Origin: Escherichia phage PGT2 | Length of the DNA stretch: 42,686 nucleotides | Direction: 5' to 3' (one strand) | Sequence record: NC_047890.1 | Shown: piece after piece, positions 1-42,686 of the stretch | Position numbering within the stretch: position 1 is the stretch's first letter | Layout of the letters: the number at the start of each line of letters is the position of its first letter | Translations under genes and position numbers: made by a program | The notes under the pieces: model-generated | Seen by the model: the letters and a program-made list of their open reading frames with translations, nothing else | Database searches by the model: none | What the model was told of the DNA's origin: nothing

Positions 1-260
1 TCCAACACAAATGAGGTCGCGTTTCCCCCGTAGGCCCGGCCTTCTGGATGGCTAAATGGCTGGATGGATGGATGGCTGGACGGCTAGACGTTTAGACGGC
101 TAAATGGCCAAATGACCGTAAAAAGGGCCGTGGGCACTGATAGGGTCAATCGGGCTGTAAGCCACGCCAACCGGGGTTTCCGCACATTACTTTATAAGAG
201 AGCTTGTAAGGTGTCTGGCGGCGATCCGTCTACGACGGGAGAAGGAAAGAGACGTGGGGT
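1..260. repeat. Left direct terminal repeat (DTR), 260 bp
   Basis: Bases 1-260 are identical to 42427-42686, checked block by block. The repeat runs to the window edge, so 260 bp is a minimum length. Confidence 0.9.
48..118. repeat. Array of short imperfect ~8-bp repeats (CTRRAYGG-like) inside the terminal repeat
   Basis: ggctaaatgg ctggatgg atggatgg ctggacgg ctagacgt ttagacgg ctaaatgg ccaaatga read directly. Resembles the short repeat series in T7 terminal repeats. Confidence 0.6.
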
Positions 261-316
261 ATCTATCTTTTTGGATACGCCTATCTTTTTCTAGTCATCT
301 ATCTTCTTACGATGAG

Positions 317-452: not shown

Positions 453-656
453 ATGGCTATACGTAATTGGGCGGCGGTGCTGGCCATTGTGGATAGTGTG
501 GGGACTGAAGCGGCGTTATCCTTGCCGTATGTTCCGGCTGATGCTAACACTATGCCGGACCGGGCCAAAAGATATGCAATTGAGTACAACATACAACGGG
601 GGAAGTATGGCGAGACCTTGCCGGAAGTACCGACGTCGTGCACTTATCGGGATTGA
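453..656 (+). CDS. Hypothetical early protein (67 aa)
   Basis: ATG at 453 preceded by SD gaggtgag with 7-nt spacing; first ORF after the terminal repeat. Confidence 0.45.
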   Translation: MAIRNWAAVLAIVDSVGTEAALSLPYVPADANTMPDRAKRYAIEYNIQRGKYGETLPEVPTSCTYRD

Positions 657-1047
657 TGTATCCGGGTATCATCCGCCGGCTGTGGTCCGGAACTGGTTAA
701 GGGATACTTTAAGGGATGAATCCAAGGGACTAGCCGATCAGCTTATTTGTAAGCCGTGGGCTGTCTGGTTAGTTTGGGCGCATGATGAGATAGATAGTAA
801 GCGGGTCAGTCTTCTGTGCTGTGTAGGGGAGCGGCAAGCCTTAACTATTATGGATAACGCGGCCCGGCTTGACGGGTATCTGTGCCGGCTGTATCAGTCC
901 GATGGCGATGCGGTCGATATTAGTCATCTGTCCGAGTATAAATCGGTGCATAACTGGACCGGATACTGGAAGCATGTACACGGTGAGGATATGCCGATGA
1001 CGATTAGTGATGACGGATTGAGAAAGCTGCGGGAGATGATAGCATGA
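607..1047 (+). CDS. Hypothetical early protein (146 aa); possibly the C-terminal part of a frameshifted product with ORF 453-656
   Basis: ATG at 607 follows a G5 run (598-602); frame is +1 relative to ORF 453 and overlaps its 3' end; a strong terminator follows the stop. Confidence 0.35.
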   Translation: MARPCRKYRRRALIGIDVSGYHPPAVVRNWLRDTLRDESKGLADQLICKPWAVWLVWAHDEIDSKRVSLLCCVGERQALTIMDNAARLDGYLCRLYQSDGDAVDISHLSEYKSVHNWTGYWKHVHGEDMPMTISDDGLRKLREMIA

Positions 1048-1051
1048 TGAT

Positions 1052-1088
1052 AAGGGGCGGGGAGTGTATCCTTGCCCCTTTCTTTTTG
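1052..1088 (+). terminator. Rho-independent terminator
   Basis: 12-bp stem aaggggcgggga / tccttgcccctt (two G-U pairs), loop gtgta, then tctttttgt. Confidence 0.6.
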
Positions 1089-1217
1089 TATTGTGGATCC
1101 CTGACGTTCTCCTGATCGGGCTTATGCACTCATGGCTGTGCGTTGGCTTGTCTTACGTGTGATTAGGTGTCTGGTGAGAACGTGGGAGATTATTTTCGAT
1201 TATTTTTAAAATATCGC

Positions 1218-5761: not shown

Positions 5762-5963
5762 CCTCCAGAATGTTGTGGTGTCATTGATGGACACCATGGA
5801 CCATAACACCAAAATCATGAACGACTCCCACGCAGCGACGAATGAGAATTTCATCGGGCTGTTAGGCATCTGTAAGGTGCTGGGCCGGGAGTTAAACGTC
5901 GAGATTAACGGCATCAACGAGGCCACCACAGGCTCCCCATACAACAACAAAACGAGGCACTAA
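5637..5963 (+). CDS. Hypothetical early protein (108 aa)
   Basis: ATG with SD ggag at 7-nt spacing; overlaps ORF 5471 by about 125 nt. Confidence 0.4.
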   Translation: MGKSSNNSKPNLKTLHEELRDAEPDALISVRQARVLIASLINLQNVVVSLMDTMDHNTKIMNDSHAATNENFIGLLGICKVLGRELNVEINGINEATTGSPYNNKTRH

Positions 5964-9996: not shown

Positions 9997-12389
9997 TGTC
10001 CTATGTAACGTTCGATTTGGAGACAACGGTCAAATCCTTGGCTAAACGCAAGGCCAGCCCGTTCCACCCGAACAATTTCATAGTGGCGATTGGTTGGAAA
10101 CGACAAAACTGCTCTGTTCAGGGTAGTTACAGTAAAACGGGCGAGCACCATCCCAATTGGTTCGAAGGTCTTTTGGCAGGTACTAAATTACTTGTCGGCC
10201 AGAATATCAAATTTGACATTCTCTATGCTATAACCCGGTCCGAATCGGCATACGCCGCTTGGATGAACTGGGTAGAGGCCGGAGGAAATGTTTGGGATTG
10301 CCAGCTTGCCGAGTATTTACTGCGAGGTCAGGAACAATCAGCCCACATGTTGTCGATGGATGAGATGGTCGAGGAGTACGGCGGGAACACGAAGGTGGAT
10401 GAAGTCAAAGCCATGTGGGAAGCAGGCTACGATACACCGGAGATTCCTGAAGACTTGCTGATGCGTTATCTCTGCGGTGAGACAAGGGATGATGGTACTC
10501 GCGTGTTCGGCGACATTGAGAACACCGAAGCAATCTTCCTCGGTCAATTGAAGAAGGCACGTAAGCGCGGCCACCTGAAGTCCATCATGCTTAACATGGG
10601 GAGCCTGTTGGCCTCCATAGAGATGGAAAAGAACGGTATGGCCGTTGACCTGAAACTGGGCTTAGAGCAAGCCGAGAAGTTGAAGGTAGCGTGCAACGAA
10701 CTCCGCGAGAAAATGCAGCAGTACCTGCCAAGTGACCTACCGTGTGAGTTTAACTGGGGTTCCGGGCACCACTTATCGGCCCTTATCTTCGGCGGCGCGA
10801 TTAAGTACAAGCAGAAAGCCGAGATTCTGGATGACGAAGGCAACAACGTTTACCCACAGATTAAGGCCGTAGGCTACGAGACAGTAACCGGGGACTTCGT
10901 GGTGCCGGGCCACGGTATCTCTGAAGAGCGTTTTCAGGAGATGGTTGAGGCCGGGAACATTGCCACGTACAAGGCCGGGAAGAAGAAGGGCCAGTTCCGG
11001 TCCAAGCAGGTTAACGTTGATGACCTGTCCCGTCCTAAGACGAAGATAATGGAGTTCCGGTACAACATGCCGGGGTTCACGGAGCCGGACCCGAAGTGGG
11101 AGACGAAGCACGAAGGCGTTTACGCCACTAATGCGGACGTCATTGAGGAATTAGGAACACGCGACGTACCGTTCCTGAAAGACCTCACCAAGCTCAACAA
11201 AATGGATAAAGACCTGACGACATACTATATCTGCGAAGACCCTAAGAAAGAGGGGATGTTCAAAGGTATGTTGACGCTGGTCGGCGATGACGGCATTATC
11301 CACGGCAGCATTAACCACACCTCCACAGTGACCGGGCGATTCTCTGCGAGCAACCCTAACCTCCAGAACATCCCCCGTGCGGACACTTCTGAAGTTAAGA
11401 AGCTGTTCATCTCGCGCTTCGGCGACGACGGCCAGATTATTCAGTCTGACTTCTCGTCTCTGGAGATTTACGTTCAGGCATTACTCACAGGTGACAAGCA
11501 ATTGCTGGCAGACCTGAAGAAAGGTCTGGACATGCACTGCGTTCGCGTCGCCAGTAAATTCGGGGTGCCCTATGAGGAAGCAGTCAAACGTTGTAAGAAG
11601 GATGTTGACGCGCCGGACTACAAGCTATGGAAGTCTCGCAGGACTGGATGTAAGGAATTTTCATTCCAACGAGCATACGGCGCTGGAGCGGCAGCAGTGG
11701 CGAACTCTACGGGGATGTCTATTGAAGACGTGCAGGACCTTATCAAGTTAGAGGACGAACGTTACCCGGAGATTGAACCATTCTATGCAAGAGTTACAGC
11801 AGCAATTAACGAAAGCCGAGTACCAACAAGTCTGTATGTACATCATCCAGAGATACGGGGACTGTCTGTCTGCATCGGCAAAGGATTTTATAGAACGCCT
11901 GATGGGAAGAAATACACTTACCGAGAGTACCCTGCTCCGGCTGGTTTTATCAAACGCGGGGGTGCACACGCCTCCTTCTCGCCTCCTGAAATTAAGAACT
12001 ACATTGTGCAGGGTACAGGTGGCGAGTGGGCGAAAGCTGCGATGTGGCTTGCAGTCCGCACATTCTATCGTTTCAACAACTTCGGAGGAAAGGCGCTCTT
12101 AGTGAATATGGTGCACGATGCGCAATACGTCGATGCTCACAATGACGTGCTGTTCGAAGCCTGCGTAGCGTTACATGCTGCAATGGAAGCGGCCAGCGAG
12201 TTCATGGAGTACCGATTCGATTGGCAGGTCGATGCCCCGGTCCCTTCAGAAACAACCTTTGGCCCAGCGATGTACTACGAGACTGGTGCCGACACCCTGC
12301 CGGGATTCGCCGAAGCAGTGCGTGCTGAACGTCTCAAAATCCGTAAGCTGTACATGAACGACTACCAACCATCATTCGAGGGTAATTAA
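9996..12389 (+). CDS. Family A DNA polymerase with 3'-5' exonuclease domain
   Basis: Exo I motif FDLETT; polymerase motif A DFSSLEIYV, motif B RTGCKEFSFQRAYG, motif C VHDA. Confidence 0.9.
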   Translation: MSYVTFDLETTVKSLAKRKASPFHPNNFIVAIGWKRQNCSVQGSYSKTGEHHPNWFEGLLAGTKLLVGQNIKFDILYAITRSESAYAAWMNWVEAGGNVWDCQLAEYLLRGQEQSAHMLSMDEMVEEYGGNTKVDEVKAMWEAGYDTPEIPEDLLMRYLCGETRDDGTRVFGDIENTEAIFLGQLKKARKRGHLKSIMLNMGSLLASIEMEKNGMAVDLKLGLEQAEKLKVACNELREKMQQYLPSDLPCEFNWGSGHHLSALIFGGAIKYKQKAEILDDEGNNVYPQIKAVGYETVTGDFVVPGHGISEERFQEMVEAGNIATYKAGKKKGQFRSKQVNVDDLSRPKTKIMEFRYNMPGFTEPDPKWETKHEGVYATNADVIEELGTRDVPFLKDLTKLNKMDKDLTTYYICEDPKKEGMFKGMLTLVGDDGIIHGSINHTSTVTGRFSASNPNLQNIPRADTSEVKKLFISRFGDDGQIIQSDFSSLEIYVQALLTGDKQLLADLKKGLDMHCVRVASKFGVPYEEAVKRCKKDVDAPDYKLWKSRRTGCKEFSFQRAYGAGAAAVANSTGMSIEDVQDLIKLEDERYPEIEPFYARVTAAINESRVPTSLYVHHPEIRGLSVCIGKGFYRTPDGKKYTYREYPAPAGFIKRGGAHASFSPPEIKNYIVQGTGGEWAKAAMWLAVRTFYRFNNFGGKALLVNMVHDAQYVDAHNDVLFEACVALHAAMEAASEFMEYRFDWQVDAPVPSETTFGPAMYYETGADTLPGFAEAVRAERLKIRKLYMNDYQPSFEGN

Positions 12390-14295: not shown

Positions 14296-14775
14296 ATGAT
14301 GAAATTAACCCAATCCCTAATTCCCGTAGTAAGACGCAAGATGGCAGCAGAGCAAGGGAACCTGTGCCTATTATGCAGGGAACATATGGAAGATAAGCAA
14401 ATGGTGCTGGACCACGACCATGATACAGGCCACTGTCGCGGGGTTCTCCACAGAGGCTGTAATGCCATGCTCGGACATCTGGAAAACAACCGTGCCCGTC
14501 ACCTGCTGAAAGACGACGACAAGTTCGCTACGTTCCTCTCGAACATCATGGAATACATCAACATGGACTGCTCGCACCAGCCACTGCACAGCACTCATAA
14601 GAACACTGCGGAGAAGAAAGCGGCATCTTATGAGAAGTCCCGGAAGAAGTTAGTAGCTTCCCGGATTGCAGCCAACCCAACCGCCGCCGACGCTATCAAA
14701 GCGAAGGAAAAAGCATTGCGTAAAGTACGCGCCGACCGTAACCGTCCATCTGTTAAATCAAGCAAAGACATTTGA
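14296..14775 (+). CDS. Recombination endonuclease VII (Holliday junction resolvase)
   Basis: Zinc/catalytic motif CLLCREH...LDHDHDTGHCRGVLHRGCN, typical of T4 endo VII family. Confidence 0.8.
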   Translation: MMKLTQSLIPVVRRKMAAEQGNLCLLCREHMEDKQMVLDHDHDTGHCRGVLHRGCNAMLGHLENNRARHLLKDDDKFATFLSNIMEYINMDCSHQPLHSTHKNTAEKKAASYEKSRKKLVASRIAANPTAADAIKAKEKALRKVRADRNRPSVKSSKDI

Positions 14776-14782
14776 GGATATT

Positions 14783-15772
14783 ATGCCAAAGACTAATCTC
14801 ATTGCACTATTCACCAAGGAACAGCACCAGAACATCCTCGGCAAGCACCCCGACAACACGGCTGCTGCCAAGGCGTACAACGAACTGCTGGGCTGGAATA
14901 GTCCGGTAGTCTACCGCCAAGTGGTGGCGTACTGGCGCAAGATTTATATCGACCACGGTGGTAAGAAAGGCGAGGCTATTCGTGAAGAGAAACAAGCTGT
15001 TAAGCTGGTTCAGCCATCACCAAGTGACGATATTGGTAACACTGACGTCCCTGACGTGTGTCGCCGTATCCTTGTGGTTGGTGATTTACATGCTCCTTAT
15101 ACTCATCCCGACGCTATTGCTTTCCTTCGCCATGTCCGAGACAGTTATGTTCCTGACATGGTTGTTCAGGTAGGCGATGAGACGGACGGCCACGCAATCA
15201 GCTTCCACGACTCGGACCCGAATCTGGATAGCGCCGGGGTCGAATTAGAGAAAGCCAAAGCCGTACTGGAGCAATTACATGACCTGTTCCCGAACCTTCT
15301 GGTATGTGACTCCAATCACGGCAGTCTTGTGTATCGCCGCGCAAAGGCTCACGGTCTACCAGTGCAATTTATCAAGAAGTACCGTGATATTCTTTTCCCT
15401 GAGCACGGTGCTAAGAAGTGGTCATGGGCTGACGCATGGGTACTCAATACCCCGCTTGGCCAAGTTCGATTCCAACATCAAGTGTCGGGCGACTTCATGC
15501 TTAACGCCAGCCATGAGAGAACCTCGCTTGTCTTGGGTCACGAGCATGGTCGCTTTGAAGTGCAGTACGCAGCAAGCTCAACAGCTTTGTACTTTGGTGC
15601 ATACGCTGGGTGTCTGATTGACCGTAAGTCTCTGGCCTTTGCCTACGGCAAGTTGCACCGCAAGAAACCAATCCTCGGCGTGATGGTAATCACCGATGGT
15701 TGTCCGCAGTTAATCCCTATGCTGATGGATGAAAACGGGAGGTGGTGTGCGCGAGATAAAACCAAAGGTTGA
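14783..15772 (+). CDS. Calcineurin-like metallophosphoesterase
   Basis: Motifs VVGDLHAPY, VQVGDETDGH, CDSNHG, GHEH; in-frame ATG 14783 with upstream SD (ORF track start 14666 overlaps the endo VII gene). Confidence 0.65.
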   Translation: MPKTNLIALFTKEQHQNILGKHPDNTAAAKAYNELLGWNSPVVYRQVVAYWRKIYIDHGGKKGEAIREEKQAVKLVQPSPSDDIGNTDVPDVCRRILVVGDLHAPYTHPDAIAFLRHVRDSYVPDMVVQVGDETDGHAISFHDSDPNLDSAGVELEKAKAVLEQLHDLFPNLLVCDSNHGSLVYRRAKAHGLPVQFIKKYRDILFPEHGAKKWSWADAWVLNTPLGQVRFQHQVSGDFMLNASHERTSLVLGHEHGRFEVQYAASSTALYFGAYAGCLIDRKSLAFAYGKLHRKKPILGVMVITDGCPQLIPMLMDENGRWCARDKTKG

Positions 15773-15794
15773 TACAGGGAAGAGATTCCGGGGT

Positions 15795-16292
15795 ATGGTG
15801 GTGTACACTTGGGACTGCCCTTACTGTGGTAGAGAGTTTGAGGCTATACGGACTAAGCTCTTCAATACAAGTAAGCGAGGTGGTGCAGGGCATTGTGGGT
15901 GTCAGACTAAGGTTCGACAGTCACAAAGAAATGCAGGGCGTACACCGCCTAATAAGCTGGACGATTTGACAGCCTCCGCTAACAAGGTGTGGCAGTACAG
16001 TACCAAACTAGGCCGGAGCATTACTAAAGAGGATGCCAAAGCCTTAGTAAGTGCAAACTGTTACTACTGCGGGGCAGCGCCCAGCACCTACCGAGAGATT
16101 GGTGGAGGTCGCTGGTCGCGCAAGTCCGAAATACCCACAAACGGAATCGACAGAAAGGATTCATCTGTAGGTTATCACGTACATAATTGTGTACCTTGCT
16201 GCCCTACGTGCAACTACATGAAGTCCGATATGCACCACGACGACTTCTTGGAGTTGTGTAGTAAAATAGCCGACCGTTGGGCCGGTCGCTAA
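15795..16292 (+). CDS. HNH endonuclease (second free-standing copy)
   Basis: N-terminal CPYCG zinc motif and C-terminal HVHNCVPCCPTCNYMKSD HNH motif; start could also be ATG 15729. Confidence 0.65.
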   Translation: MVVYTWDCPYCGREFEAIRTKLFNTSKRGGAGHCGCQTKVRQSQRNAGRTPPNKLDDLTASANKVWQYSTKLGRSITKEDAKALVSANCYYCGAAPSTYREIGGGRWSRKSEIPTNGIDRKDSSVGYHVHNCVPCCPTCNYMKSDMHHDDFLELCSKIADRWAGR

Positions 16293-16332: not shown

Positions 16333-17052
16333 ATGTTGTTAATGCTCTCTGGCGCGATTGGCGCTGGCAAAGATACCTTCGGTGAGTTCCTGTACGACTC
16401 ATTCGACAAGTTCGGCTACAGCGTGGAAGTGGTGAAGTTTGCCGACCCCATTCGTGAAGCTGCATTTAAGCTCGGATTCAATCCAGATGACCGGGCAACC
16501 AAGGAAGTCCCTGCAATACGCCATTATAAACTCTCAGAACTTGATGAGGCCATTTTTACTACTCATACCTGCCTGACACCTTACGAGCGCCGAATGGTCG
16601 CTGTACGAGTTCACCAGAGATTAATTAACATTCGCAAGGAGAAACATGATGGCATCTACAAGCCTGTCGTCAGTACGCGAGAATTTATGCAGGTCGTCGG
16701 TGGGACTGTACGAGACGCTAAAGAAGATTATTACATCCAGCACATGCTTCTCAATACACCAGAATCACGCGTTAACATCTGCACTGATACTCGGTTCATC
16801 AACGAGCAGCGAATTGGGGATTATTCGGTCTACGTTGAGCGCCCAAACAACCCGTTGGCGGTTCATACCCGCGACGCGTCGGAAGCAGCACAAGCGTTGC
16901 TCCGGGGGGCGGCGAAGAAAGTAATCCTGAACAACAGCACTCTGGATAATCTGGCTGAAGAAGCCGATTACGTGGCTACAACATTAATTTCAAAAGGGTA
17001 TTGTGATGACGCAGTTAAAGACGCAGGCGGAACTGGAATCTTTATCGAGTGA
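16333..17052 (+). CDS. P-loop deoxynucleoside monophosphate kinase-like protein
   Basis: N-terminal P-loop MLLMLSGAIGAGKDT resembles T4 dNMP kinase MKLIFLSGVKRSGKDT; strong SD tgagga. Confidence 0.6.
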   Translation: MLLMLSGAIGAGKDTFGEFLYDSFDKFGYSVEVVKFADPIREAAFKLGFNPDDRATKEVPAIRHYKLSELDEAIFTTHTCLTPYERRMVAVRVHQRLINIRKEKHDGIYKPVVSTREFMQVVGGTVRDAKEDYYIQHMLLNTPESRVNICTDTRFINEQRIGDYSVYVERPNNPLAVHTRDASEAAQALLRGAAKKVILNNSTLDNLAEEADYVATTLISKGYCDDAVKDAGGTGIFIE

Positions 17053-18976
17053 GCGCGGTCTTGCCAAGCTGATGGCCGAGTGTGAGCAGGCTGAATCAGC
17101 GGGGCGTGCATCCGGCGCGTTTTATGCCAAGCAGTTGTTAGAGCGTTTTGTTAACCGTATGGCCGAACGTATTGACCACGAGATGGCGAATCCGGGTGCT
17201 GGCCGCGCGAAAGCGCATAAGAAACTGGTCGCTGTGTTTGACTCCAAAGTCACTGCGTTTATTTCTGTATCAACCACATTGAACATGCTGATGGTCAACG
17301 AGCAGACACCGGGCACCAGCCTTAGTCGCGCCCTCGGCAATGCAATGTATAACGAACTGTTCTGTACCACATTCGACGATGCCAACCCGGACCTGTTTCA
17401 CACCATCTGCAAGGACTTGGATAAGCGCCAGAGCAAATCCAGCCGCCACCGCATGACGGTACTGAAGAATCAGGCAGCGAAGAAGGGTATCGCGTGGGAG
17501 AACTGGACCGTCACCGAAATCCTTCAGGTCGGTGAGTGGTGTCTGGATAATCTGGTGTCAGTTGGTCTGTGCGAAACGCATACCGAGGTGTCTCGCGGTA
17601 AGGCGAAGATGTACGTGGAACTGTCCGACGAGGCGCTGGGAATGATTGAGGATACCAAACGTCTGGTGTCCTTCTTCCGGCCCCAGCGCCTCCCGTTCGT
17701 AGAGAAGCCTCTGGACTGGACCGGGATTGTTGGTGGTGGCTACCATACTGCTCGTATGCAGAGTACGATGCCTCGTTGCATCAAAGCCAGCCCGACCCAG
17801 ATGGATGTACTCATAAAGCACCGTGACGACTACAAGGATACGGTGGTGGCGTGCATTAACACTCTGCAATCGGTAGAGTGGCGTATCAACAAGCGTATTC
17901 TGGAAGTGCAGCAGCAGATGTTCCGAGGCTTTGAGCCGAAGAACAAGCCTGATGCTCTGGAGTGTCATAGCAAGGACGTTGAAGAGTGGACCGAGGCAGA
18001 TAAATCTCTACACAGCCACTGGAAGAAGGAAATGGCTCGCTGGTACACAGAGCAGCGTGCAGAGCGTTATGCCGCTTCACGACATGCCTACACGTTGTCA
18101 GTGGCACGAGAGTTCGCTGACTACCCGCGTATCTGGTTCATGTACTTCGCCGACTGGCGCGGGCGTTATTACCCGGCCACCACAGGCATCTCGCCGCAGG
18201 GGACCGACATCTCTAAATCCATGCTGGAGTTCGCCAATGGCAAGCCCATCTCTGACCCAATCGCAGAACAGTTCTTCTTCCTCCTTGGTTCAACTAAATT
18301 CGGATTCGACAAAGGCTCTATATCCGAACGAGTTCAGTGGGTTCACAAGAATCACGACCTTATCTTGGCGTGTGCCGACGAACCGCTACTACATACTGAT
18401 TTCTGGTACAGAGAAGCAGATAAGAAGACCCGCTACCAATTTCTGGCATGGTGTTTTGAATATGCTGAATACACGCGGTTCCCAGCTGGATTTGTATCAC
18501 GACTTCCGGTGTCTCTTGATGGCACATGTAATGGCCTACAACACTATTCGGCGATGCTACGAGATTCGGTTGGTGCTAAGGCTACCAACCTGTTACCTGC
18601 TAACCGACCAAACGATATTTACGCGCAAGTCGCAGGCGTTGTCACCAACCTTCTTGAAAGCATGTCACCTGCCGACTTCCCGGCACTGACACGCGAATCT
18701 AAGCCTCTCAGCGTCTATGAGGTGGACTTCTTCCGTAGGGCATGGTTACACCACGGTATCAGCCGTAGCCTCGTTAAACGGTGCGTTATGACGTTACCTT
18801 ACGGGTCCAAGAAGTTCAGCATGGGTCGCTTCATCAAAGGCGACTACATGATGGACATTCACCCGGAAGAGTTCGACACCGACGACTACACCGACGCAAA
18901 GTATGTTCCCGCCAGACCAGAGTTCGGTGACCTCGATTTAGAGCAGGTCAATCACTCCGAATACTTCTTCCTGTAG
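17006..18976 (+). CDS. T7-like single-subunit RNA polymerase, apparently lacking the C-terminal ~190 aa (motif C and C-terminus)
   Basis: PLDWTGIVGGGY, DWRGRYY...PQGTD, FLAWCFEYA, LDGTCNGLQHYSAMLRD (motif A) and VMTLPYGSKKF (motif B) align with T7 RNAP; the ORF stops about 50 residues after motif B. Confidence 0.85.
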   Translation: MTQLKTQAELESLSSERGLAKLMAECEQAESAGRASGAFYAKQLLERFVNRMAERIDHEMANPGAGRAKAHKKLVAVFDSKVTAFISVSTTLNMLMVNEQTPGTSLSRALGNAMYNELFCTTFDDANPDLFHTICKDLDKRQSKSSRHRMTVLKNQAAKKGIAWENWTVTEILQVGEWCLDNLVSVGLCETHTEVSRGKAKMYVELSDEALGMIEDTKRLVSFFRPQRLPFVEKPLDWTGIVGGGYHTARMQSTMPRCIKASPTQMDVLIKHRDDYKDTVVACINTLQSVEWRINKRILEVQQQMFRGFEPKNKPDALECHSKDVEEWTEADKSLHSHWKKEMARWYTEQRAERYAASRHAYTLSVAREFADYPRIWFMYFADWRGRYYPATTGISPQGTDISKSMLEFANGKPISDPIAEQFFFLLGSTKFGFDKGSISERVQWVHKNHDLILACADEPLLHTDFWYREADKKTRYQFLAWCFEYAEYTRFPAGFVSRLPVSLDGTCNGLQHYSAMLRDSVGAKATNLLPANRPNDIYAQVAGVVTNLLESMSPADFPALTRESKPLSVYEVDFFRRAWLHHGISRSLVKRCVMTLPYGSKKFSMGRFIKGDYMMDIHPEEFDTDDYTDAKYVPARPEFGDLDLEQVNHSEYFFL

Positions 18977-19062
18977 TACCCGGCCAAGGATGGCTACCTT
19001 CCCTCTCTATTTCGTCACCTACAATAGCACACAATACCCTCAAACTGTTCTTCTTGAACACT

Positions 19063-19095
19063 AGCCTTGGCCTCTTTGGTCAGGGCTATTTTTTC
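19063..19095 (+). terminator. Rho-independent terminator downstream of the RNA polymerase ORF
   Basis: 10-bp stem agccttggcc / ggtcagggct (two G-U pairs), loop tcttt, then attttttc. Confidence 0.65.
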
Positions 19096-19139
19096 TGATT
19101 TAGGGTATTTGTTAAATATGGCTTGAAGCCTTGATATAT

Positions 19140-19169
19140 GGGGTTTCCGCACATTATTTTAATAAGGGG
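19140..19169 (+). promoter_or_regulatory. Conserved 28-bp element GGGGTTTCCGCACATTAYTTTA(A)TAAGRG; candidate phage promoter or other regulatory site
   Basis: Near-identical copies at 173-200 and 42599-42626 (inside the terminal repeats); first 17 nt identical, then 1 mismatch and 1 indel. Confidence 0.4.
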
Positions 19170-19509
19170 TCCGGAGGGTGTTAAAATGTTCCTTAAATTT
19201 TACTTTGGTTAATTTCTAAGTTAAGCGAAAGCCAACTTAGTAAGGTAAGAGATTATTACCGGATTAGTGGTCCATACCGTAGTGAGTTAGAAAGACTACA
19301 TTCCCGGATTAGTGAGTTAGAGGGTGCTCTTTCCTCCTCAGAGTCTGTACCAGAACCTGTTACAGAAATATTCAGTAGAATGAACTATGAGGTGTACGAA
19401 TACTTTGAGCGTACAGTAAGTAATACTTCTGTAGCTAGTTCTACTACTGATTTAGAAGCTGGGTTTAAATTAGGTGTCCAGCATGTTCTCGCCAAGTTGA
19501 GGAATGGGT

Positions 19510-19938
19510 ATGTCACACCGCGAAGTCTCTGATTCTGATTGGGTAGCTAGTGTTCCTAAGTTGGTTGAGGCTATTTGCAACTCACCCAGCAGGATGATAT
19601 GTGATATTGACGTAGAGGCTACTCTGGCTCATTTTATGGCCGTAGCCACTCGTGGTGGTGCGTATATTGTCAAGGAGAAGTATCTGGTCGTATTCGACCG
19701 CTACAAGCTCTGGTATGCACCTACCAAGGATATTATCGAAGAGAAGATTGTCCTGTGTATTTACCCAGAAAATCCCGGCTCAATGTTCGATGTTGTCCGA
19801 TTTCTAATTGAACAACGTGATTACCTTGAAGCGAATCACTTGGTCATAGGTGACTTCCTGCACACTAATCAGGAAAAGTATGGTCGAGTCCTAACTAAAT
19901 TAGGGTTGACCAAAATCAACTCAGTTTACGCATGTTAG
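19510..19938 (+). CDS. Hypothetical protein (143 aa) in a compositionally atypical region
   Basis: SD gagga 6 nt before ATG 19510 (ATG 19504 is too close to the SD); no recognisable motif; region is more AT-rich than neighbours. Confidence 0.5.
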   Translation: MSHREVSDSDWVASVPKLVEAICNSPSRMICDIDVEATLAHFMAVATRGGAYIVKEKYLVVFDRYKLWYAPTKDIIEEKIVLCIYPENPGSMFDVVRFLIEQRDYLEANHLVIGDFLHTNQEKYGRVLTKLGLTKINSVYAC

Positions 19939-23065: not shown

Positions 23066-23986
23066 ATGACCGTATCAACTCCGTCAACTCCGGTACAACA
23101 AGCAGCAGCCCCAGCGGCTGCTCCGGCACCACAAGCTCCGGCACAGAGCGGCATCCCGTATGTTCCGCCTGCCCCTGTAGCTCCGGCTGCTCCGGTGGAA
23201 GCACCGCAAGCAACGCTTGACCCGAATCAATTCGCTAACCCGTCTCAGGCAGGCATCCCCGCCGCCTCGGTACAGCAGCCAGCACCGCAGTCTCCACCGC
23301 AGGCTCCCGTAGAGCCGCCAGCACAGCAGACGCCATCGCAGGCAGAATTAACGCTGACAGAGAAACCGCTGTACAAGCACGAGCCTACTGGCAACGTTGC
23401 TTATGATATGGCTATGAATGCCTTCGCAGCTAAGGGATTCTCCCCGGACCACCCTGCGTTCGTCCCGGCATCCAAAGGTGACTTCTCCGCACTGGAGGCG
23501 TTCGTCAAGGAGCAAGGCATCGACCCGCAATATCTGGCACTGGCTCAACAGGCGTACATCCAGATTTCTGAGCACCACAACGCCACTCATGGCGAGACTA
23601 TCAAGAAAGCATTGGAAGTCGCTGGTGGTCAGGAACGCTGGAACAAGGTGCAGGCGTGGGTGCAGGATGTTGCCAGCCCGGAAGAGATTACTTACTACAA
23701 ACAGCAGCTTGAAGCTGGTGGTGTTGCCACCCTGAAGGCTGTGGAATACCTGTCCGGCCTGTACGGACAACATGCAGAGAATGCCCCGGCCCAGCCGAGT
23801 GAATCACCTGCTACCCCGTTCAATACCAATTCGTCACCTACAATAGCAACTAACGGTGCCCCGATTTCCCCGCAAGAATTTCGGGCAGAACTGTCTCGTC
23901 TCATTGACAAGGTAGGGTACTCCGGTCTGGAAACCTCACCGGAATACAAAGCGTTGCAACAACGTCGTCAGGCGTGGCGCGGGTAA
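23066..23986 (+). CDS. Capsid assembly (scaffolding) protein with Pro/Ala/Gln-rich N-terminal region
   Basis: Located between portal and major capsid, 306 aa; assigned by synteny only. Confidence 0.6.
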   Translation: MTVSTPSTPVQQAAAPAAAPAPQAPAQSGIPYVPPAPVAPAAPVEAPQATLDPNQFANPSQAGIPAASVQQPAPQSPPQAPVEPPAQQTPSQAELTLTEKPLYKHEPTGNVAYDMAMNAFAAKGFSPDHPAFVPASKGDFSALEAFVKEQGIDPQYLALAQQAYIQISEHHNATHGETIKKALEVAGGQERWNKVQAWVQDVASPEEITYYKQQLEAGGVATLKAVEYLSGLYGQHAENAPAQPSESPATPFNTNSSPTIATNGAPISPQEFRAELSRLIDKVGYSGLETSPEYKALQQRRQAWRG

Positions 23987-24035: not shown

Positions 24036-25019
24036 ATGGCCTTACCAACTTGGACTCCTACCCGTCCTAACCAACAGAACCAAGCAGGTTCTGTGAATGC
24101 TCTCATCATCGAAGAGTTCACGGGCATCGTTGAGCACACTATTAAGCGTAAGCAGGTGCTGGCCCCGTTTATCCCGATGCGTACCATTCGTGGTACTAAC
24201 ACCCTGACCAACTATGCGGTCGGCAACACCACTCTCGGCACTGTAACCACTGGTACTGAACCAGCGGAAACTTCTGGCCCGGATGTATCCCGCAACTTCT
24301 TGGTTGTGGATACTCACGTCTATGCACGTAACTCCATCGGTCTGCTGGAAACCTTCCAGAGCACCATCGACATCCGTCGTGAGATTGCAATTGAGCATGG
24401 CGAAACCATGTCCAAGTTTACTGACCAAGCCTTCTTCATTCAGGCGGTCAAAGCGGCTCGTGCTGTTCAGAGTTCTTACTCTGGTGGTACTGCTAGTAAA
24501 CCGGGTGGCTTCGGCGTGGGTAACGTCCAGACTCTGGCTGCGGCTGGTGACGAACTGGATGGCACCAAGCTGTACAAAGCAATCAGCAACCTGTTCGTGA
24601 AGATGGAACAGCAGGACGTGCAGCCGAATATGGATGGTATGGTACTTGCTCTGGTTCCGTCTGCGTTCTATGCGCTGCTGGATGCTGAGCAGATTATCAA
24701 CGGTAACTATGTTACTGCTGATGGTACCAGCGTGTCCGGTATGGTGTTTAAGGCGTTCGGTGTGCCTGTTGTTAAATCCAACAACATCCCGACCACCAAC
24801 GTCACCTCTCACCCGCTGGGTGCGAACTACACTGGCGACTTCTCCAAAGTTGTCGGCGTGGTCCTGTCTCCGAAAGCCCTGATGGCTGGTGAGACTATCC
24901 CGCTCCAGAGCGACCTGTTCTACGACAAGCTGCGTAAGACTTGGTACGTGGACTCCGAGCGTGCATTCGGTGTTGCACCGAACCGCAACGAATACGCTGG
25001 CGTTATTGAGAAAGCGTAA
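24036..25019 (+). CDS. Major capsid protein
   Basis: Synteny (after scaffold, followed by a terminator), strong RBS, 327 aa; loose similarity to remembered T7 gp10A. Confidence 0.8.
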   Translation: MALPTWTPTRPNQQNQAGSVNALIIEEFTGIVEHTIKRKQVLAPFIPMRTIRGTNTLTNYAVGNTTLGTVTTGTEPAETSGPDVSRNFLVVDTHVYARNSIGLLETFQSTIDIRREIAIEHGETMSKFTDQAFFIQAVKAARAVQSSYSGGTASKPGGFGVGNVQTLAAAGDELDGTKLYKAISNLFVKMEQQDVQPNMDGMVLALVPSAFYALLDAEQIINGNYVTADGTSVSGMVFKAFGVPVVKSNNIPTTNVTSHPLGANYTGDFSKVVGVVLSPKALMAGETIPLQSDLFYDKLRKTWYVDSERAFGVAPNRNEYAGVIEKA

Positions 25020-25026
25020 TCCAACT

Positions 25027-25059
25027 AGCCTCTACCTTAATTGGTAGGGGCTATTTTTC
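25027..25059 (+). terminator. Rho-independent terminator after the major capsid gene
   Basis: Stem agcctctacc / ggtaggggct (one G-U pair), loop ttaatt, then atttttcc. Confidence 0.65.
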
Positions 25060-25083
25060 CTAAAGTATTCAGAGGAACTTTTC

Positions 25084-35753: not shown

Positions 35754-38516
35754 ATGGCTATTACGTTTTATGCTACCAACAACTTCACTGGTGATGGTAC
35801 TACCGTAAACTGGAATATTAACTTCGCAGACGGTTATATCGACATCACCACCGTGAAGGCGCGGTATCTGGATAATACCGGGAGCTACGTTGACATCGCT
35901 ATTTCAAGCGTGGCAGGAAACGTAGTAACCATTTCCCCGGCTGTGGCGGACGGTCAGGAGTTCCAAATCTATCGTGATACAGAGAAGCGGTTCCCGCTGG
36001 TGGACTTCTCTGACGGTGCAATCCTCAACGAGACTAACCTTGACACGCTGGCTACTCAAGCTGTGATGGTGTCTGCTGAGGCATTCGACCAGTCTAACAA
36101 CGGTGTGCGTATCGCAGGTGATTCCTTGGTTGTTGCACAGGGTATCGACGCCAAGGCACAGGAAGCTCTGGACAACTCCGAGGCTGCTGTAGCTACAGCG
36201 AACGGTATCGACGGTAAAGCGCAGACGGCATTGAATACCGCCGCCGCCGCTGTCGCCACGGCTAATGCTGCCACATCTACTGCTGCTGGTGCTGTATCTA
36301 CGGCCAACACCGCACTGTCTACTGCCCACGATGCCGCCGATGACGCAGCTACCGCTATCACTACCGCTAACGGCGCTGTGATTACGGCCAATGCTGCAAC
36401 CACTACGGCCAACGCCGCTAGTGCTGCCGCCTCTGCTGCAACGACTACTGCGAACAGTGCTGCAAACGACGCTGCTACTGCTGTGTCTACTGCGGGTACG
36501 GCCTTGTCTACTGCGAACACCGCATCTACCAACGCCTCTACCGCTGTGTCCACGGCTAACGGCGCTAAGGCTACTGCTGAGGGTATCGAGGCTAAAGCGG
36601 ATTCTGCTTTGGCAGCCTCTGCTACCGCTGTGTCCACAGCTAACTCAGCCGAGGCTACGGCCAACGCTATCGACGGTAAGGCTACGGACGCATTAGACAC
36701 TGCCGACTCCGCTGTGGCTACGGCTAACGCTGCTGTTTCTACGGCTAACTCTGCTACTGCTACGGCTAATGCTGCCTCTTCTACTGCGAGTTCGGCTGCC
36801 TCTGACGCCAGTACCGCCTTGAGCACAGCTAATGCTATTGACGCAAAGGCACAGACTGCTTTGGATAATACCACGGCTCTGGATGCGGCCACCATGAAGA
36901 AAGCCGCCAACTTATCTGATATTGCGGATAAGGCGGCTGCATGGCTTAACGTCCGTCCTATTGGCTCCACGCCATTGGCAGGCGACCCGGTAGGGGATTA
37001 CGATGCTGTTACTAAGCGTTGGGTAGAGAACCTGATTAACACAGGTACTGTCGGTCCAACCATGAACGGGGTGATGAACTTCGGCGTCGGTGACTTCCAT
37101 CTCCGGGATAGCCGCGCGTACATCCAGCCTTATGAGGTTGTCTCTGACGGTCAGTTACTGAACCGCGCTGACTGGCCTGAACTTTGGGCCTACGCCCAAA
37201 TGCTGTCGCCTATAACGGATGCAGCTTGGTTGGCAGACCCTCTCAAGCGCGGCGCTTACTCTACCGGAAACGGAACCACTACCTTCCGAGTACCGGATAG
37301 GAACGGTGTTCAGTCAGGCTCTGTAAGGGCGCTTTTTGGGCGTGGTGACGGTGGGAACTCTTCTATCGGCAGTACCATCATGGAGTCCTTCGTACCGAAT
37401 ATCACGGCTACGTTAAATATGCACGGTGCTGGTCCCGCATCAGAACCTGCCGCTGGTACTAACGTGGCAGGATTTGGTGGTGCCTTGGTTGCTACGGGAG
37501 AGGCTCTCCCGAGATACCTGCGTGGGGTTACTCTGTTATCTGCTGGTGGTAACTCCTATGGTGGAGCTACCTTCGATGCCTCCCGTTCCAGTGCTGCTTA
37601 TGGTCGTGGTGGTCTGACTACGGATGAGGTTCTGCCGCGTAACTTCACTGGTGTATGGGTAATTCGTGCATCTGGCGGCTTCGTAGCGGCTAATACGCAG
37701 TGGCAGGTTATAAACCAAGATGCGACTAGGCCCGGTAACGGTACTGCCGTCTTAGGTGGTAATATTGTATCTGAGTACCGCGTTGGTGGTGCCTTGGAGG
37801 GTACAGCAAACTTCCGTATGGCGGGTACTATCGATGGTTCGTATGGCGCGCGCATTGCTGTTTATAATGCCACATCTTTAAATGGCGCCAGCTTCGATTT
37901 TACAGAGCACGGGAACATAGAGACTCCCCTTGGTAGGGCTATTGTTATAGGCAACTATGGTATAGGTTCGCAAGCAGATGCTATACCTACTTCGAGGGAT
38001 AACGCATTTATCTCTAACGCTGATAGTAATAGTTCTTGGTCTGCTTCTAACGGGGGTGGCTTTCAAATTACATATGCAGCTAACCGTATCGTCCAGTTCT
38101 GGGTAAGTCAAGGTGGTACTACGGCTTATTTCCGTGCTAATAGCACAGACAGTAACCCCCAACGACCGAAGTCTGCATCTCCTTGGGTCACACTCCAGAA
38201 TGCTGGTACTTCGGACGCTAATGTAAAAACCGTCCTCGGTGACTTAGACTTATCTATACCGTTGAGTAATATCAACGCACTGGAGTTTAAGAAATTCCGC
38301 TACAACAAGGATGGTGAGGATGGCCCGGTTCGACGGGGCATTATCGCGCAGCAGGCGCAGAATGTGGACCCGGAGTACGTACATTCTGCGGATAAGTCCG
38401 GGGTTATGACTCTTGATAGTAACCCGCTGCTGTTGGATGCTCTAGCTGCTGTCAAAGCACTATCTGCTAAAGTGGCCGCTCTGGAAGAGCGTATTGATGA
38501 ACTAACTTCTCAGTAA
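35754..38516 (+). CDS. Tail fiber protein: T7 gp17-like N-terminal adaptor, Ala/Thr/Ser-rich repeat shaft, C-terminal intramolecular chaperone domain
   Basis: N-terminus LVDFSDGAILNETNLDTLATQAVMVSAEA parallels T7 gp17 [29 protein letters not shown]; C-terminus GIIAQQAQ...LAAVKALSAKVAALEERIDELT is chaperone-like; ORF track start 35742 is a TTG. Confidence 0.8.
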   Translation: MAITFYATNNFTGDGTTVNWNINFADGYIDITTVKARYLDNTGSYVDIAISSVAGNVVTISPAVADGQEFQIYRDTEKRFPLVDFSDGAILNETNLDTLATQAVMVSAEAFDQSNNGVRIAGDSLVVAQGIDAKAQEALDNSEAAVATANGIDGKAQTALNTAAAAVATANAATSTAAGAVSTANTALSTAHDAADDAATAITTANGAVITANAATTTANAASAAASAATTTANSAANDAATAVSTAGTALSTANTASTNASTAVSTANGAKATAEGIEAKADSALAASATAVSTANSAEATANAIDGKATDALDTADSAVATANAAVSTANSATATANAASSTASSAASDASTALSTANAIDAKAQTALDNTTALDAATMKKAANLSDIADKAAAWLNVRPIGSTPLAGDPVGDYDAVTKRWVENLINTGTVGPTMNGVMNFGVGDFHLRDSRAYIQPYEVVSDGQLLNRADWPELWAYAQMLSPITDAAWLADPLKRGAYSTGNGTTTFRVPDRNGVQSGSVRALFGRGDGGNSSIGSTIMESFVPNITATLNMHGAGPASEPAAGTNVAGFGGALVATGEALPRYLRGVTLLSAGGNSYGGATFDASRSSAAYGRGGLTTDEVLPRNFTGVWVIRASGGFVAANTQWQVINQDATRPGNGTAVLGGNIVSEYRVGGALEGTANFRMAGTIDGSYGARIAVYNATSLNGASFDFTEHGNIETPLGRAIVIGNYGIGSQADAIPTSRDNAFISNADSNSSWSASNGGGFQITYAANRIVQFWVSQGGTTAYFRANSTDSNPQRPKSASPWVTLQNAGTSDANVKTVLGDLDLSIPLSNINALEFKKFRYNKDGEDGPVRRGIIAQQAQNVDPEYVHSADKSGVMTLDSNPLLLDALAAVKALSAKVAALEERIDELTSQ
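36100..36900. repeat. Imperfect tandem codon repeats (STAN/ATAN units) inside the tail fiber gene
   Basis: About 16 copies of nCyACnGCnAAy (encoding x-T-A-N) at roughly 7-, 11- and 14-residue spacing. Confidence 0.7.
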
Positions 38517-42426: not shown

Positions 42427-42686
42427 TCCAACACAAATGAGGTCGCGTTTCCCCCGTAGGCCCGGCCTTCTGGATGGCTAAATGGCTGGATGGATGGATG
42501 GCTGGACGGCTAGACGTTTAGACGGCTAAATGGCCAAATGACCGTAAAAAGGGCCGTGGGCACTGATAGGGTCAATCGGGCTGTAAGCCACGCCAACCGG
42601 GGTTTCCGCACATTACTTTATAAGAGAGCTTGTAAGGTGTCTGGCGGCGATCCGTCTACGACGGGAGAAGGAAAGAGACGTGGGGT
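42427..42686. repeat. Right direct terminal repeat (DTR), 260 bp
   Basis: Exact copy of 1-260. Confidence 0.9.

What the first reader, a model, noticed from the sequence alone, without database searches (positions are those of the whole stretch)
19140..19169. 28-bp element shared between the terminal repeat and the site just downstream of the RNAP terminator
GGGGTTTCCGCACATTA is identical at 173-189 and 19140-19156, and the following TTTA(A)TAAG is near-identical, while the flanks are unrelated. A match of this length cannot plausibly arise by chance in 42 kb. Its placement, once near a genome end and once after the RNAP terminator at the head of the late module, is where T7-like phages carry phage-polymerase promoters or origin/packaging signals.
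Basis: seen in the sequence. Interest (0 to 1): 0.6.

Follow-up and report, generated by a model that had tools for sequence, protein, structure and literature searches.

The report
Predicted phage RNA-polymerase promoter, repeated
The repeated 28-bp element is real and is most likely a promoter for the phage's own T7-type RNA polymerase, sitting where T7 and related phages also carry such promoters, so it is an ordinary though previously unannotated feature.

Summary
The window is the complete genome of Escherichia phage PGT2. It is a phiKT-like Autographiviridae phage (Ermolevavirus) with a 260-bp direct terminal repeat (DTR).

GGGGTTTCCGCACATTA occurs three times: at 173, at 19140, and at 42599, which is the right-DTR copy of 173. 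The core GTTTCCGCACATTAyTTT(A)ATAAG is invariant or nearly so in phiKT and in five metagenome-assembled relatives. Its flanks vary in those genomes.

The internal copy lies in the order RNAP stop, terminator (19062-19098), element, Shine-Dalgarno, ATG (19186). In six more distant relatives (Prado, Cota, Percy, Cd1, JG068, P14) each phage's own repeated motif occupies the same places: the left end and just after the RNAP gene. In Prado one copy lies inside the DTR. In JG068 these motifs are annotated as phage promoters. T7 has the same layout with phiOL, phi1.1A and phi1.1B.

Best reading: a promoter for the phage single-subunit RNAP, possibly also serving as an origin or packaging-linked site.

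A second motif, TTCGTCACCTACAATAGCA (19011, 23830), shares the 5' half and is probably a second promoter class.

Caveats: nothing here has been tested experimentally. PGT2's deposited RNAP gene also lacks 167 residues, including the specificity loop and catalytic residues.

This is a new member of a known kind, of low to moderate interest.

The parts
173..200 (+). M1 copy in the left DTR: GGGGTTTCCGCACATTACTTTATAAGAG. The conserved core runs 176-198. The conserved block extends to about 223 (..GAGCTTGTAAGGTGTCTGGCGGCG).
   Evidence: The core is 100% identical in 6 Ermolevavirus genomes, and the block is the most conserved part of the whole non-coding right end and DTR.
19140..19169 (+). M1 internal copy: GGGGTTTCCGCACATTATTTTAATAAGGGG. 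Putative start of transcription is around 19164-19166 (inferred).
   Evidence: The core has 0.92 mean identity against 0.80/0.77 in the flanks across 5 genomes. In three relatives it reads CACATTACTTTATAAGAAGCTGTCC, i.e. the DTR version.
42599..42626 (+). M1 copy in the right DTR, identical to 173-200 by virtue of the terminal repeat.
1..260 (.). Left direct terminal repeat, equal to 42427-42686.
   Evidence: (family D2, 100% identity). The boundaries look biological: the left edge TCCAAC and the right edge GGGGT|ATCTATCTTTTT are conserved in relatives.
42427..42686 (.). Right direct terminal repeat.
19062..19098 (+). Intrinsic terminator after the RNAP gene: an 11-bp stem followed by a T-run. 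It lies between M2 and M1.
   Evidence: Invariant in 5 genomes.
19173..19188 (+). Shine-Dalgarno GGAGGG (19173-19178) and ATG (19186-19188) of the first late gene, directly downstream of M1.
   Evidence: In phiKT this ATG opens a 115-aa ORF. Gene callers place the start here in three relatives.
19011..19029 (+). M2 copy 1: TTCGTCACCTACAATAGCA, 35 nt after the RNAP stop codon and upstream of the terminator. Probably a second promoter class.
   Evidence: Exact in phiKT and in three relatives. Shares TTCskCACmT with M1.
23830..23848 (+). M2 copy 2, inside the scaffold gene, about 200 nt upstream of the capsid ATG at 24036.
   Evidence: Exact in phiKT and in three relatives.
17003..18976 (+). Single-subunit RNAP gene, the presumed reader of M1 and M2. 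In this record it carries an in-frame 501-nt deletion at 18897/18899.
261..272 (+). ATCTATCTTTTT immediately after the DTR, repeated at 297-305. It resembles the T7 class II pause/termination signal and lies about 63 nt downstream of the DTR copy of M1.
   Evidence: T7's ATCTGTT lies at 161-167, right after its 160-bp terminal repeat. Background on class II signals: bioRxiv 10.1101/2021.01.11.426313.

Best explanation
M1 (core GTTTCCGCACATTAyTTT(A)ATAAG) is a promoter for the phage-encoded T7-type single-subunit RNA polymerase.

The internal copy sits just past the terminator that ends the middle (RNAP) transcription unit. It launches late transcription a few bases upstream of the Shine-Dalgarno and ATG of the first late gene.

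The terminal-repeat copy is the counterpart of T7 phiOL/phiOR. It is a promoter at the genome end that fires rightwards, towards the DTR boundary and the left-end genes.

M2 (TTCGTCACCTACAATAGCA) is probably a second promoter class read by the same enzyme. It shares the 5' half TTTC..CAC.T. With M2, the post-RNAP region has a promoter-hairpin-promoter layout like T7 phi1.1A, R1.1, phi1.1B.

Shown here: the repeat itself, its orientation, its position, its conservation, and the positional parallels in relatives and in T7. Inferred: recognition by the RNAP, and the start site (about 19164-19166 and 197-199).
For: (1) M1 is repeated and always on the + strand. No other copies exist at up to 3 mismatches. 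A PHIRE-like self-scan leaves only M1 and M2 as non-sigma70 repeated motifs.

(2) The gene context is RNAP stop 18976, terminator 19062-19098, M1 19140-19169, SD 19173, ATG 19186.

(3) Conservation footprint. The DTR copy's core is 100% identical in 6 genomes, against 0.84/0.88 in the flanks and 0.2-0.8 elsewhere in the DTR. The internal copy scores 0.92 against 0.80/0.77.

(4) Positional homology. Each relative's own repeated motif lies near the left end and right after the RNAP gene:
- Percy: 279, 20864, 36485
- Cd1: 315, 19908, 35241
- JG068: 252, 18834, 22918, 34541 (annotated 'phage promoter')
- P14: 876, 20370, 23726, 35227
- Cota: 3629, 22442, 22500, 37912
- Prado: 160 (inside its 616-bp DTR), 19051, hairpin, 19106, 35191
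.

(5) Sequence resemblance in the expected register. The family 5' consensus is TTTCGGyAC; M1 has TTTCCGCAC. M1 versus Cota is 18/31 (p = 9e-5 per offset) and M1 versus Percy is 17/31.

(6) The T7 record has phiOL at 405, the end of gene 1 at 5822, phi1.1A at 5848 and phi1.1B at 5923.

(7) M1 is not a sigma70 promoter. The two copies share no common -35/-10.
Against: - There is no transcript or binding data for any Ermolevavirus.
- Promoters in the relatives are themselves only predictions (PHIRE). The one functional screen I read does not name the P14 or JG068 enzyme-promoter pairs among the six active ones it lists by number.
- A PWM built only from the relatives' motifs does not single out M1 genome-wide. 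M1 ranks 11-12 with a score of 10.4, while the shuffle maximum averages about 14.
- M1 and M2 differ strongly in their 3' halves, which is unusual for one stringent T7-type enzyme. M2 resembles the P14 and Cd1 start regions (TAGCACA) better than M1 does.
- The conserved block of the DTR copy runs about 25 nt beyond the presumed start site. This is more than a minimal promoter needs.
- The RNAP in this particular record lacks the specificity loop and the catalytic Asp/His.
Confidence: 0.65

Rival explanations
1. M1 is chiefly a replication-origin or packaging-linked RNAP loading site rather than a gene-expression promoter. On this view the internal M2-terminator-M1 cluster plus the AT-rich stretch is the primary origin, as T7 phi1.1A/B plus its AT-rich region are. 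The DTR copy loads RNAP about 63 nt upstream of a class-II-like pause (ATCTATCTTTTT) at the DTR boundary, to trigger concatemer processing as at the T7 concatemer junction.
For: - Tandem promoter-like motifs lie directly after the RNAP gene here and in Cota, Prado and T7.
- GC falls to 0.33-0.36 at 19100-19300, a stretch that also holds direct repeats.
- ATCTRT sits at the DTR boundary in PGT2 and its relatives, and in Percy, JG068, Lullwater and T7.
- The DTR copy is followed by these signals before any gene, and its conserved block is longer than a minimal promoter.
- Class II signals and the T7 concatemer-junction site are described in bioRxiv 10.1101/2021.01.11.426313.
Against: - This reading still requires M1 to be a promoter, so it refines the best explanation rather than replacing it.
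- In Percy and JG068 the left-end promoter lies to the right of the boundary, so it cannot feed a pause there.
- Prado's boundary lacks ATCT.
- T7 class II signals are said to lose function with any base change, and the sequence here differs from ATCTGTT at two positions.
- No replication or packaging data exist.
Confidence: 0.15
2. M2 is the only true RNAP promoter, and M1 is a binding site for a different protein, such as a phage regulator, the small terminase or a host factor.
For: - M2 has both the family 5' element and a P14/Cd1-like start region (TAGCACA).
- M2 is 19/19 identical in all five genomes examined, at both of its sites.
- M1's 3' half is unlike the relatives' start regions.
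- The conserved DTR block is long.
Against: - M1, not M2, occupies the two positions that relatives reserve for their repeated motif: the left end, and immediately upstream of the SD of the first late gene.
- M2 copy 1 is followed within about 35 nt by a strong terminator, so on its own it is poorly placed to drive the late genes.
- M1 shares TTTCnnCACnT with M2 and GTTTC.GCAC with Cota.
- The small palindrome upstream of M1 is not conserved.
- A terminase site duplicated in mid-genome would be hazardous to the phage.
Confidence: 0.12
3. The repeat is a functionless relic of a duplication or recombination event, or it is a host sigma70 promoter.
For: - There are only two independent copies.
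- Weak sigma70-like hexamers overlap the internal copy.
Against: - The core is conserved while the flanks diverge in seven genomes, at both sites.
- The two copies share no -35/-10 pair, and none is reported at the DTR copy.
- Good sigma70 early promoters lie elsewhere, at 1443 and 1639.
Confidence: 0.05

Closest known systems
T7 promoters phiOL (left end) and phi1.1A/phi1.1B (directly after gene 1, part of the primary origin)
   Same: One promoter lies near the left genome end, upstream of the host early promoters. Two promoter-like sites lie within about 170 nt after the RNAP stop codon, with a hairpin between them. All point rightwards.
   Different: - The sequences are unrelated to TAATACGACTCACTATAG.
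- The RNAP gene sits at 40-45% of the genome, next to the late genes (phiKMV-type order).
- The end copy lies inside the DTR rather than 245 nt beyond it.
- The two post-RNAP sites (M2 and M1) differ strongly from each other.
- Only four sites exist in total, against 17 in T7 (the T7 count is from general knowledge).
Predicted phage promoters of JG068 (PHIRE, annotated), and the equivalent repeated motifs of Prado, Cota, Percy, Cd1 and P14
   Same: The positions match: left end, just after the RNAP gene abutting the SD of a small first late gene, and before the capsid gene. The 5' pattern is similar (TTTCGGyAC versus TTTCCGCAC). Prado also has a copy inside its DTR and a promoter-hairpin-promoter arrangement after the RNAP gene.
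   Different: - The RNAPs are only 39-41% identical, and the 3' halves of the motifs differ.
- PGT2 and phiKT lack a pre-tail-fibre copy.
- PGT2 and phiKT use two distinct motif classes.
- All of these promoters are predictions, not mapped starts.
T7 concatemer-junction class II pause/termination signal (ATCTGTT)
   Same: ATCTATCTTTTT begins at the first base after the DTR, exactly where ATCTGTT lies in T7 (161-167 after a 160-bp terminal repeat). The same holds within 1-2 nt in Percy, JG068 and Lullwater.
   Different: This is a neighbouring feature, not the element under review. The sequence differs from ATCTGTT at two positions. No pausing data exist, and the signal is absent at Prado's boundary.

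Membership tests
Promoters of T7-type single-subunit phage RNAP | A short (about 20-25 bp) conserved sequence, repeated in the genome, with all copies oriented with transcription | tested here: met
   M1 has two independent copies plus the DTR duplicate, and M2 has two. All are on the + strand. The copy number is low.
Promoters of T7-type single-subunit phage RNAP | Placed upstream of transcription units, typically after a terminator and before the SD of the next gene | tested here: met
   The order is terminator 19062-19098, M1 19140-19169, SD 19173, ATG 19186. The DTR copy lies upstream of the left-end genes at 453-1047.
Promoters of T7-type single-subunit phage RNAP | The genome encodes a cognate, functional single-subunit RNAP | tested here: inconclusive
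   phiKT and 33 cluster members encode an 823-aa enzyme that aligns with T7 RNAP end to end. This record's gene (656 aa) lacks the region equivalent to T7 residues 674-858.
Promoters of T7-type single-subunit phage RNAP | Equivalent motifs at equivalent positions in related phages | tested here: met
   Percy, Cd1, JG068, P14, Cota and Prado all show this. Sequence similarity is modest and is not genome-wide significant by PWM.
Promoters of T7-type single-subunit phage RNAP | RNAP-dependent initiation at a defined +1 within the motif | not testable with these tools
   This needs in vitro transcription or 5'-end mapping.
T7-type primary replication origin (promoter(s) plus AT-rich region) | Tandem phage promoters followed by an AT-rich stretch just after the RNAP gene | tested here: met
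   M2 and M1 lie within 160 nt of each other. GC is 0.33-0.36 at 19100-19300, against about 0.5 in the flanks.
T7-type primary replication origin (promoter(s) plus AT-rich region) | Replication initiates there | not testable with these tools
   No replication data are available.
Terminase/pac recognition site of the concatemer junction | Confined to the terminal repeat or junction | tested here: not met
   A second copy lies at 19140 in mid-genome.
Sigma70 host promoter | -35 and -10 hexamers at 16-18 bp spacing, shared by the copies | tested here: not met
   Only the internal copy overlaps weak 9/12 matches, made partly from non-shared flank. None is reported at 173-200.
Known structured RNA families (Rfam) | Match to a curated covariance model | tested here: not met
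   There are no gathering-threshold hits anywhere in the window.

The most novel reading that the evidence does not exclude
The DTR copy of M1 is not there to express genes. It is a dedicated RNAP-loading site that fires into a conserved class-II-like pause signal (ATCTATCTTTTT), which begins at the first base beyond the terminal repeat, about 63 nt downstream. This would couple transcription to terminal-repeat processing. The internal M2-terminator-M1 cluster would act as the primary replication origin, and M2 would make a conserved ~70-nt terminated RNA. If so, the 'ATCTRT at the DTR boundary' rule would extend the T7 concatemer-junction mechanism across distant Autographiviridae.
Probability: 0.15. 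Interest if true: 0.55.

Novelty: new member of a known kind. Interest (0 to 1): 0.3.

Why it matters
The GenBank record of phiKT annotates only host-type promoters predicted by BPROM and NNPP, and I found no published phage-promoter annotation for Ermolevavirus. Identifying M1, and its companion M2, gives the genus a testable transcription map: left-end unit, promoter-terminator-promoter after the RNAP gene, and a pre-capsid promoter.

It also supplies a candidate promoter for a divergent single-subunit RNAP. Lack of a reliable cognate-promoter prediction is described as the limiting step in exploiting new RNAPs (PMC11475235).

Beyond that, the element is what one expects in a T7-supergroup phage.

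Tried and rejected
- **Exact 15-mer scan of IMG/VR.** It gave 57 loci. Apart from the window itself and phiKT, all were unrelated. About 30 are the reverse strand of a conserved coding stretch (..LMCGNPT.., next to a DEAS Walker-B-like motif) in ATPase or terminase-like genes. Others are zinc-ribbon coding sequence or chance matches.
- **Metagenome scan with TTTCCGCACATTAYTTTA.** It gave 36 loci. None aligns to the window.
- **Rfam** on the window and on ten of those loci: no hits.
- **PWM built from the relatives' motifs:** not discriminating genome-wide.
- **Upstream palindrome GGCTnnnAGCC as a protein site.** It is enriched in the window (6 unique occurrences against 0.7 expected). But it is mutated in phiKT's end copy and in relatives' internal copies, so I dropped it.
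- **RNA/DNA hairpin formed by M1's 3' half with downstream sequence.** Most relatives carry an A-to-C change that breaks a pair without compensation, and the internal copy has no equivalent hairpin. Rejected.
- **M1 as the start of a gene.** phiKT ORF13 is annotated from the ATG at the motif. In PGT2 that ORF is only 24 aa. The DTR copy has no ATG. Gene callers in relatives start at the SD-preceded ATG 46 nt downstream.
- **Search for a pre-tail-fibre copy:** none, only a hairpin.
- **Literature searches** for phiKT and Ermolevavirus promoters found nothing specific. The RSB1 paper is not held in the library.

Full report
**What the window is.** The window is a complete podophage genome with a 260-bp direct terminal repeat: 1-260 equals 42427-42686. 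All major ORFs are on the + strand in phiKMV-type order, with the single-subunit RNAP gene (17003-18976) directly before the structural genes. It is 95% identical to Escherichia phage phiKT (Autographiviridae, Ermolevavirus). An exact protein look-up identifies it as Escherichia phage PGT2.

**The observation.** GGGGTTTCCGCACATTA is exact at 173, at 19140 and also at 42599. The last is the right-DTR image of the first, so there are two independent sites. The similarity extends beyond 17 nt. It is 74% over 47 nt upstream through the core (family D4), and continues downstream as yTTTA(A)TAAG..GGTGT. The pattern search expects 0.15 matches. In a whole-genome 20-mer self-comparison only four pairs reach 19/20: this one, the sigma70 early promoters, a pair of ribosome-binding-site regions, and a second motif described below.

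**Conservation in close relatives.** phiKT keeps both sites: exact at 14531, and one mismatch at 38015. The 90% protein clusters revealed many Ermolevavirus assemblies in public metagenomes. I fetched the post-RNAP region from three of them and the holin-to-left-end junction from five.
- At the terminal-repeat site, the 23-nt core GTTTCCGCACATTACTTTATAAG is identical in all six genomes aligned. The surrounding 30 nt average 0.84/0.88 identity, and the tandem-repeat part of the DTR falls to 0.2-0.5. The block from the core to ..GTCTGGCGGCG is the best-conserved stretch of the whole non-coding end.
- At the internal site, the core averages 0.92 against 0.80/0.77 for the flanks.
- In three relatives the internal copy reads CACATTACTTTATAAGAAGCTGTCC.
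- The small palindrome upstream (GGCTnnnAGCC) is not conserved.

**Local anatomy.** The order is RNAP stop codon 18976, a second motif M2 at 19011-19029, a strong intrinsic terminator at 19062-19098, M1 at 19140-19169, SD GGAGGG at 19173, and ATG at 19186. In phiKT that ATG opens a 115-aa ORF. Gene callers choose it in three relatives. Its C-terminal 50 residues match phrog_5112, a PHROGs family of small (~60-aa) proteins of unknown function. I did not test whether the small genes that follow the RNAP gene in Percy, Cd1 or RSB1 belong to that family. The arrangement terminator, then motif, then SD, then gene is what a late promoter should look like. At the left end M1 lies 250 nt upstream of two small conserved genes (453-656 and about 574-1047). 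These genes end at a strong terminator (1052-1090) and lie upstream of the sigma70 early promoters at 1443 and 1639.

**Distant relatives.** No phage outside the genus has an RNAP more than about 41% identical, so the same sequence cannot be expected elsewhere. The architecture, however, recurs. In each relative I asked what the post-RNAP intergenic region shares with the rest of its genome.

| Phage | Repeated motif | Positions |
|---|---|---|
| Percy (DTR 1-201) | TTTTGGTACATTCTCGCTACA | 279; 20864 (after its annotated terminator, abutting the RBS); 36485 (pre-fibre) |
| Cd1 | TTGATTTGATACCCTCAAGCACAAGG | 315; 19908; 35241 |
| JG068 (DTR 1-216) | TCrGTAGAsTATCTAG | 252; 9560; 9662; 18834; 22918; 34541 |
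| P14 | TTTCGGTACGCTCTAGCA | 876; 20370; 23726; 35227 |
| Cota (closest RNAP) | GAGTTTCGGCACCCTACATAcACAG | 22442 and 22500, either side of a hairpin just after the RNAP stop; 3629; 37912 |
| Prado (DTR 1-616) | CCTTTTGGTACACATACGACAGAGG | 160 (inside the DTR); 19051; hairpin; 19106 (before the SD); 35191 |

The JG068 copies are annotated 'phage promoter' from a PHIRE prediction. Prado reproduces every feature of the PGT2 layout, including a copy inside the DTR. The T7 record itself shows phiOL at 405, the end of gene 1 at 5822, phi1.1A at 5848 and phi1.1B at 5923.

**Sequence resemblance.** The family 5' pattern is TTTCGGyAC. M1 has TTTCCGCAC and M2 has TTTCGTCAC. M1 aligns without gaps to the Cota and Percy post-RNAP copies at 18/31 and 17/31 in the expected register. 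This is suggestive only. A weight matrix built from the relatives alone ranks M1 11th-12th in the window, within shuffle noise.

**The second motif.** TTCGTCACCTACAATAGCA (M2) is exact at 19011 and 23830. The latter lies about 200 nt before the capsid ATG, where JG068, P14 and RSB1 have a copy of their own motif. M2 is exact in phiKT and in three relatives at both sites. It shares TTCskCACmT with M1: five matches, all of them these sites, against 0.65 expected. It ends in TAGCACA like the P14 and Cd1 motifs. I read M1 and M2 as two promoter classes for one enzyme. That they differ so much in the 3' half is the main unexplained point, and it is the basis of the rival in which only M2 is the promoter.

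**Mechanism proposed.** Host RNAP transcribes the early and middle genes up to the terminator at 19062-19098. The phage RNAP then starts at M1, and late transcription begins a few nucleotides before the SD of the first late gene. M2 boosts capsid expression from 23830. The pair M2/M1 flanking a hairpin after the RNAP gene mirrors T7 phi1.1A, R1.1, phi1.1B, which in T7 also form the primary origin (the origin role is general knowledge; the positions are). The region 19100-19300 is AT-rich. The DTR copy corresponds to T7's end promoters. These steps are inferred from position and conservation; none has been shown.

**A caveat specific to this record.** PGT2's RNAP is 656 aa, against 823 aa in phiKT and in 33 other cluster members. 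The in-frame 501-nt gap at 18897/18899 removes the segment that aligns to T7 RNAP 674-858. That segment holds the specificity loop, His784 and Asp812. Pfam RNA_pol matches only profile positions 16-183 of 448. Either the deposited assembly is wrong or this genome cannot read its own promoters. Experiments should use the phiKT enzyme.

**Things that led nowhere.** Exact-word scans of IMG/VR and of the metagenome collection returned only coincidental matches. Most were the reverse strand of an ..LMCGNP.. coding motif. Rfam found nothing. A sigma70 reading fails because the two copies share no hexamer pair. A hairpin involving M1's 3' half is not supported by the substitutions seen in relatives.

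**Verdict.** The element is a new, unannotated member of a well-known kind. Interest is low to moderate. The more interesting possibilities are a promoter inside the terminal repeat firing into a conserved class-II-like signal at the repeat boundary, a conserved ~70-nt M2-to-terminator unit, and two divergent promoter classes. These are listed separately with low probability.

Noticed in passing
window 17003-18976 (junction 18897/18899): The RNAP gene has an in-frame 501-nt deletion relative to phiKT and 33 other cluster members (656 versus 823 aa). It removes the equivalent of T7 RNAP 674-858, which holds the specificity loop, His784 and Asp812. The deletion is present in the deposited PGT2 protein ATS92446.1. 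It is either an assembly error or a defective genome.
   Followed up: yes
window 19011-19029 and 23830-23848: A second exact 19-mer, TTCGTCACCTACAATAGCA (M2). One copy lies between the RNAP stop codon and the terminator, the other about 200 nt upstream of the capsid gene inside the scaffold gene. It is exact in phiKT and three relatives, shares TTTC..CAC.T with the element under review, and looks T7-like (..CAC.TACAATAG).
   Followed up: partly
window 19008-19098: The block from M2 through the terminator is almost invariant in five genomes. The only variable columns fall in the loop of a small hairpin (GTTC-nnnnn-GAAC). If M2 fires, it would make a ~70-nt two-hairpin terminated RNA. Cota and Prado also have promoter-hairpin-promoter here.
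   Followed up: partly
window 261-272, 282-292, 297-305: ATCTATCTTTTT begins at the first base after the DTR and is conserved in all Ermolevavirus junctions examined. T7 has its class II pause signal ATCTGTT at 161-167, right after its 160-bp terminal repeat. Percy (gggca|TCTATCTT), JG068 (gggca|TCTGTATT) and Lullwater (gggc|CATCTATCT) show the same; Prado does not.
   Followed up: partly
window 19186-19212 (T-run 19198-19201): The first late gene is frameshifted in PGT2. It has four T where phiKT and three relatives have five, leaving an 8-codon ORF. The conserved C-terminal part (phrog_5112) survives only as a 50-aa ORF at 19380-19532.
   Followed up: partly
window 44-108 (and 42470-42534): Tandem 8/16-nt repeats (GATGGCTA / CTGGACGGCTAAATGG) lie inside the DTR. 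They are replaced or absent in other Ermolevavirus genomes. They give about 80% matches to terminal or non-coding regions of jumbo phages (PBECO4-like; in one record within a feature annotated 'Direct Terminal Repeats').
   Followed up: no
window 453-1090: Two small conserved genes (453-656, with SD and ATG; about 574-1047 in another frame) are followed by a strong terminator (1052-1090). They form a separate unit upstream of the sigma70 early promoters (1443, 1639, about 1879). They are unannotated in the phiKT record and match no family. They are the only genes the DTR copy of the element could serve directly.
   Followed up: partly
window 15729-16292 and 12296-12378: There are mosaic differences from phiKT. 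An extra 187-aa ORF with no Pfam match is absent from phiKT, and its 3' part is about 87% identical to Klebsiella phage genes. The HNH endonuclease gene that phiKT has after the DNA polymerase is missing here. Metagenomic relatives carry up to four HNH genes at varying sites.
   Followed up: no
window 19076-19095 and 25041-25060: The terminator after the RNAP gene and the one after the capsid gene are near-identical in sequence (TTGGTCAGGGCTATTTTTTC versus TTGGTAGGGGCTATTTTTCC).
   Followed up: no
window 36244-36830: The tail-fibre gene contains a long array of degenerate 21-nt (7-codon) repeats rich in GCT/ACT/GCC codons.
   Followed up: no
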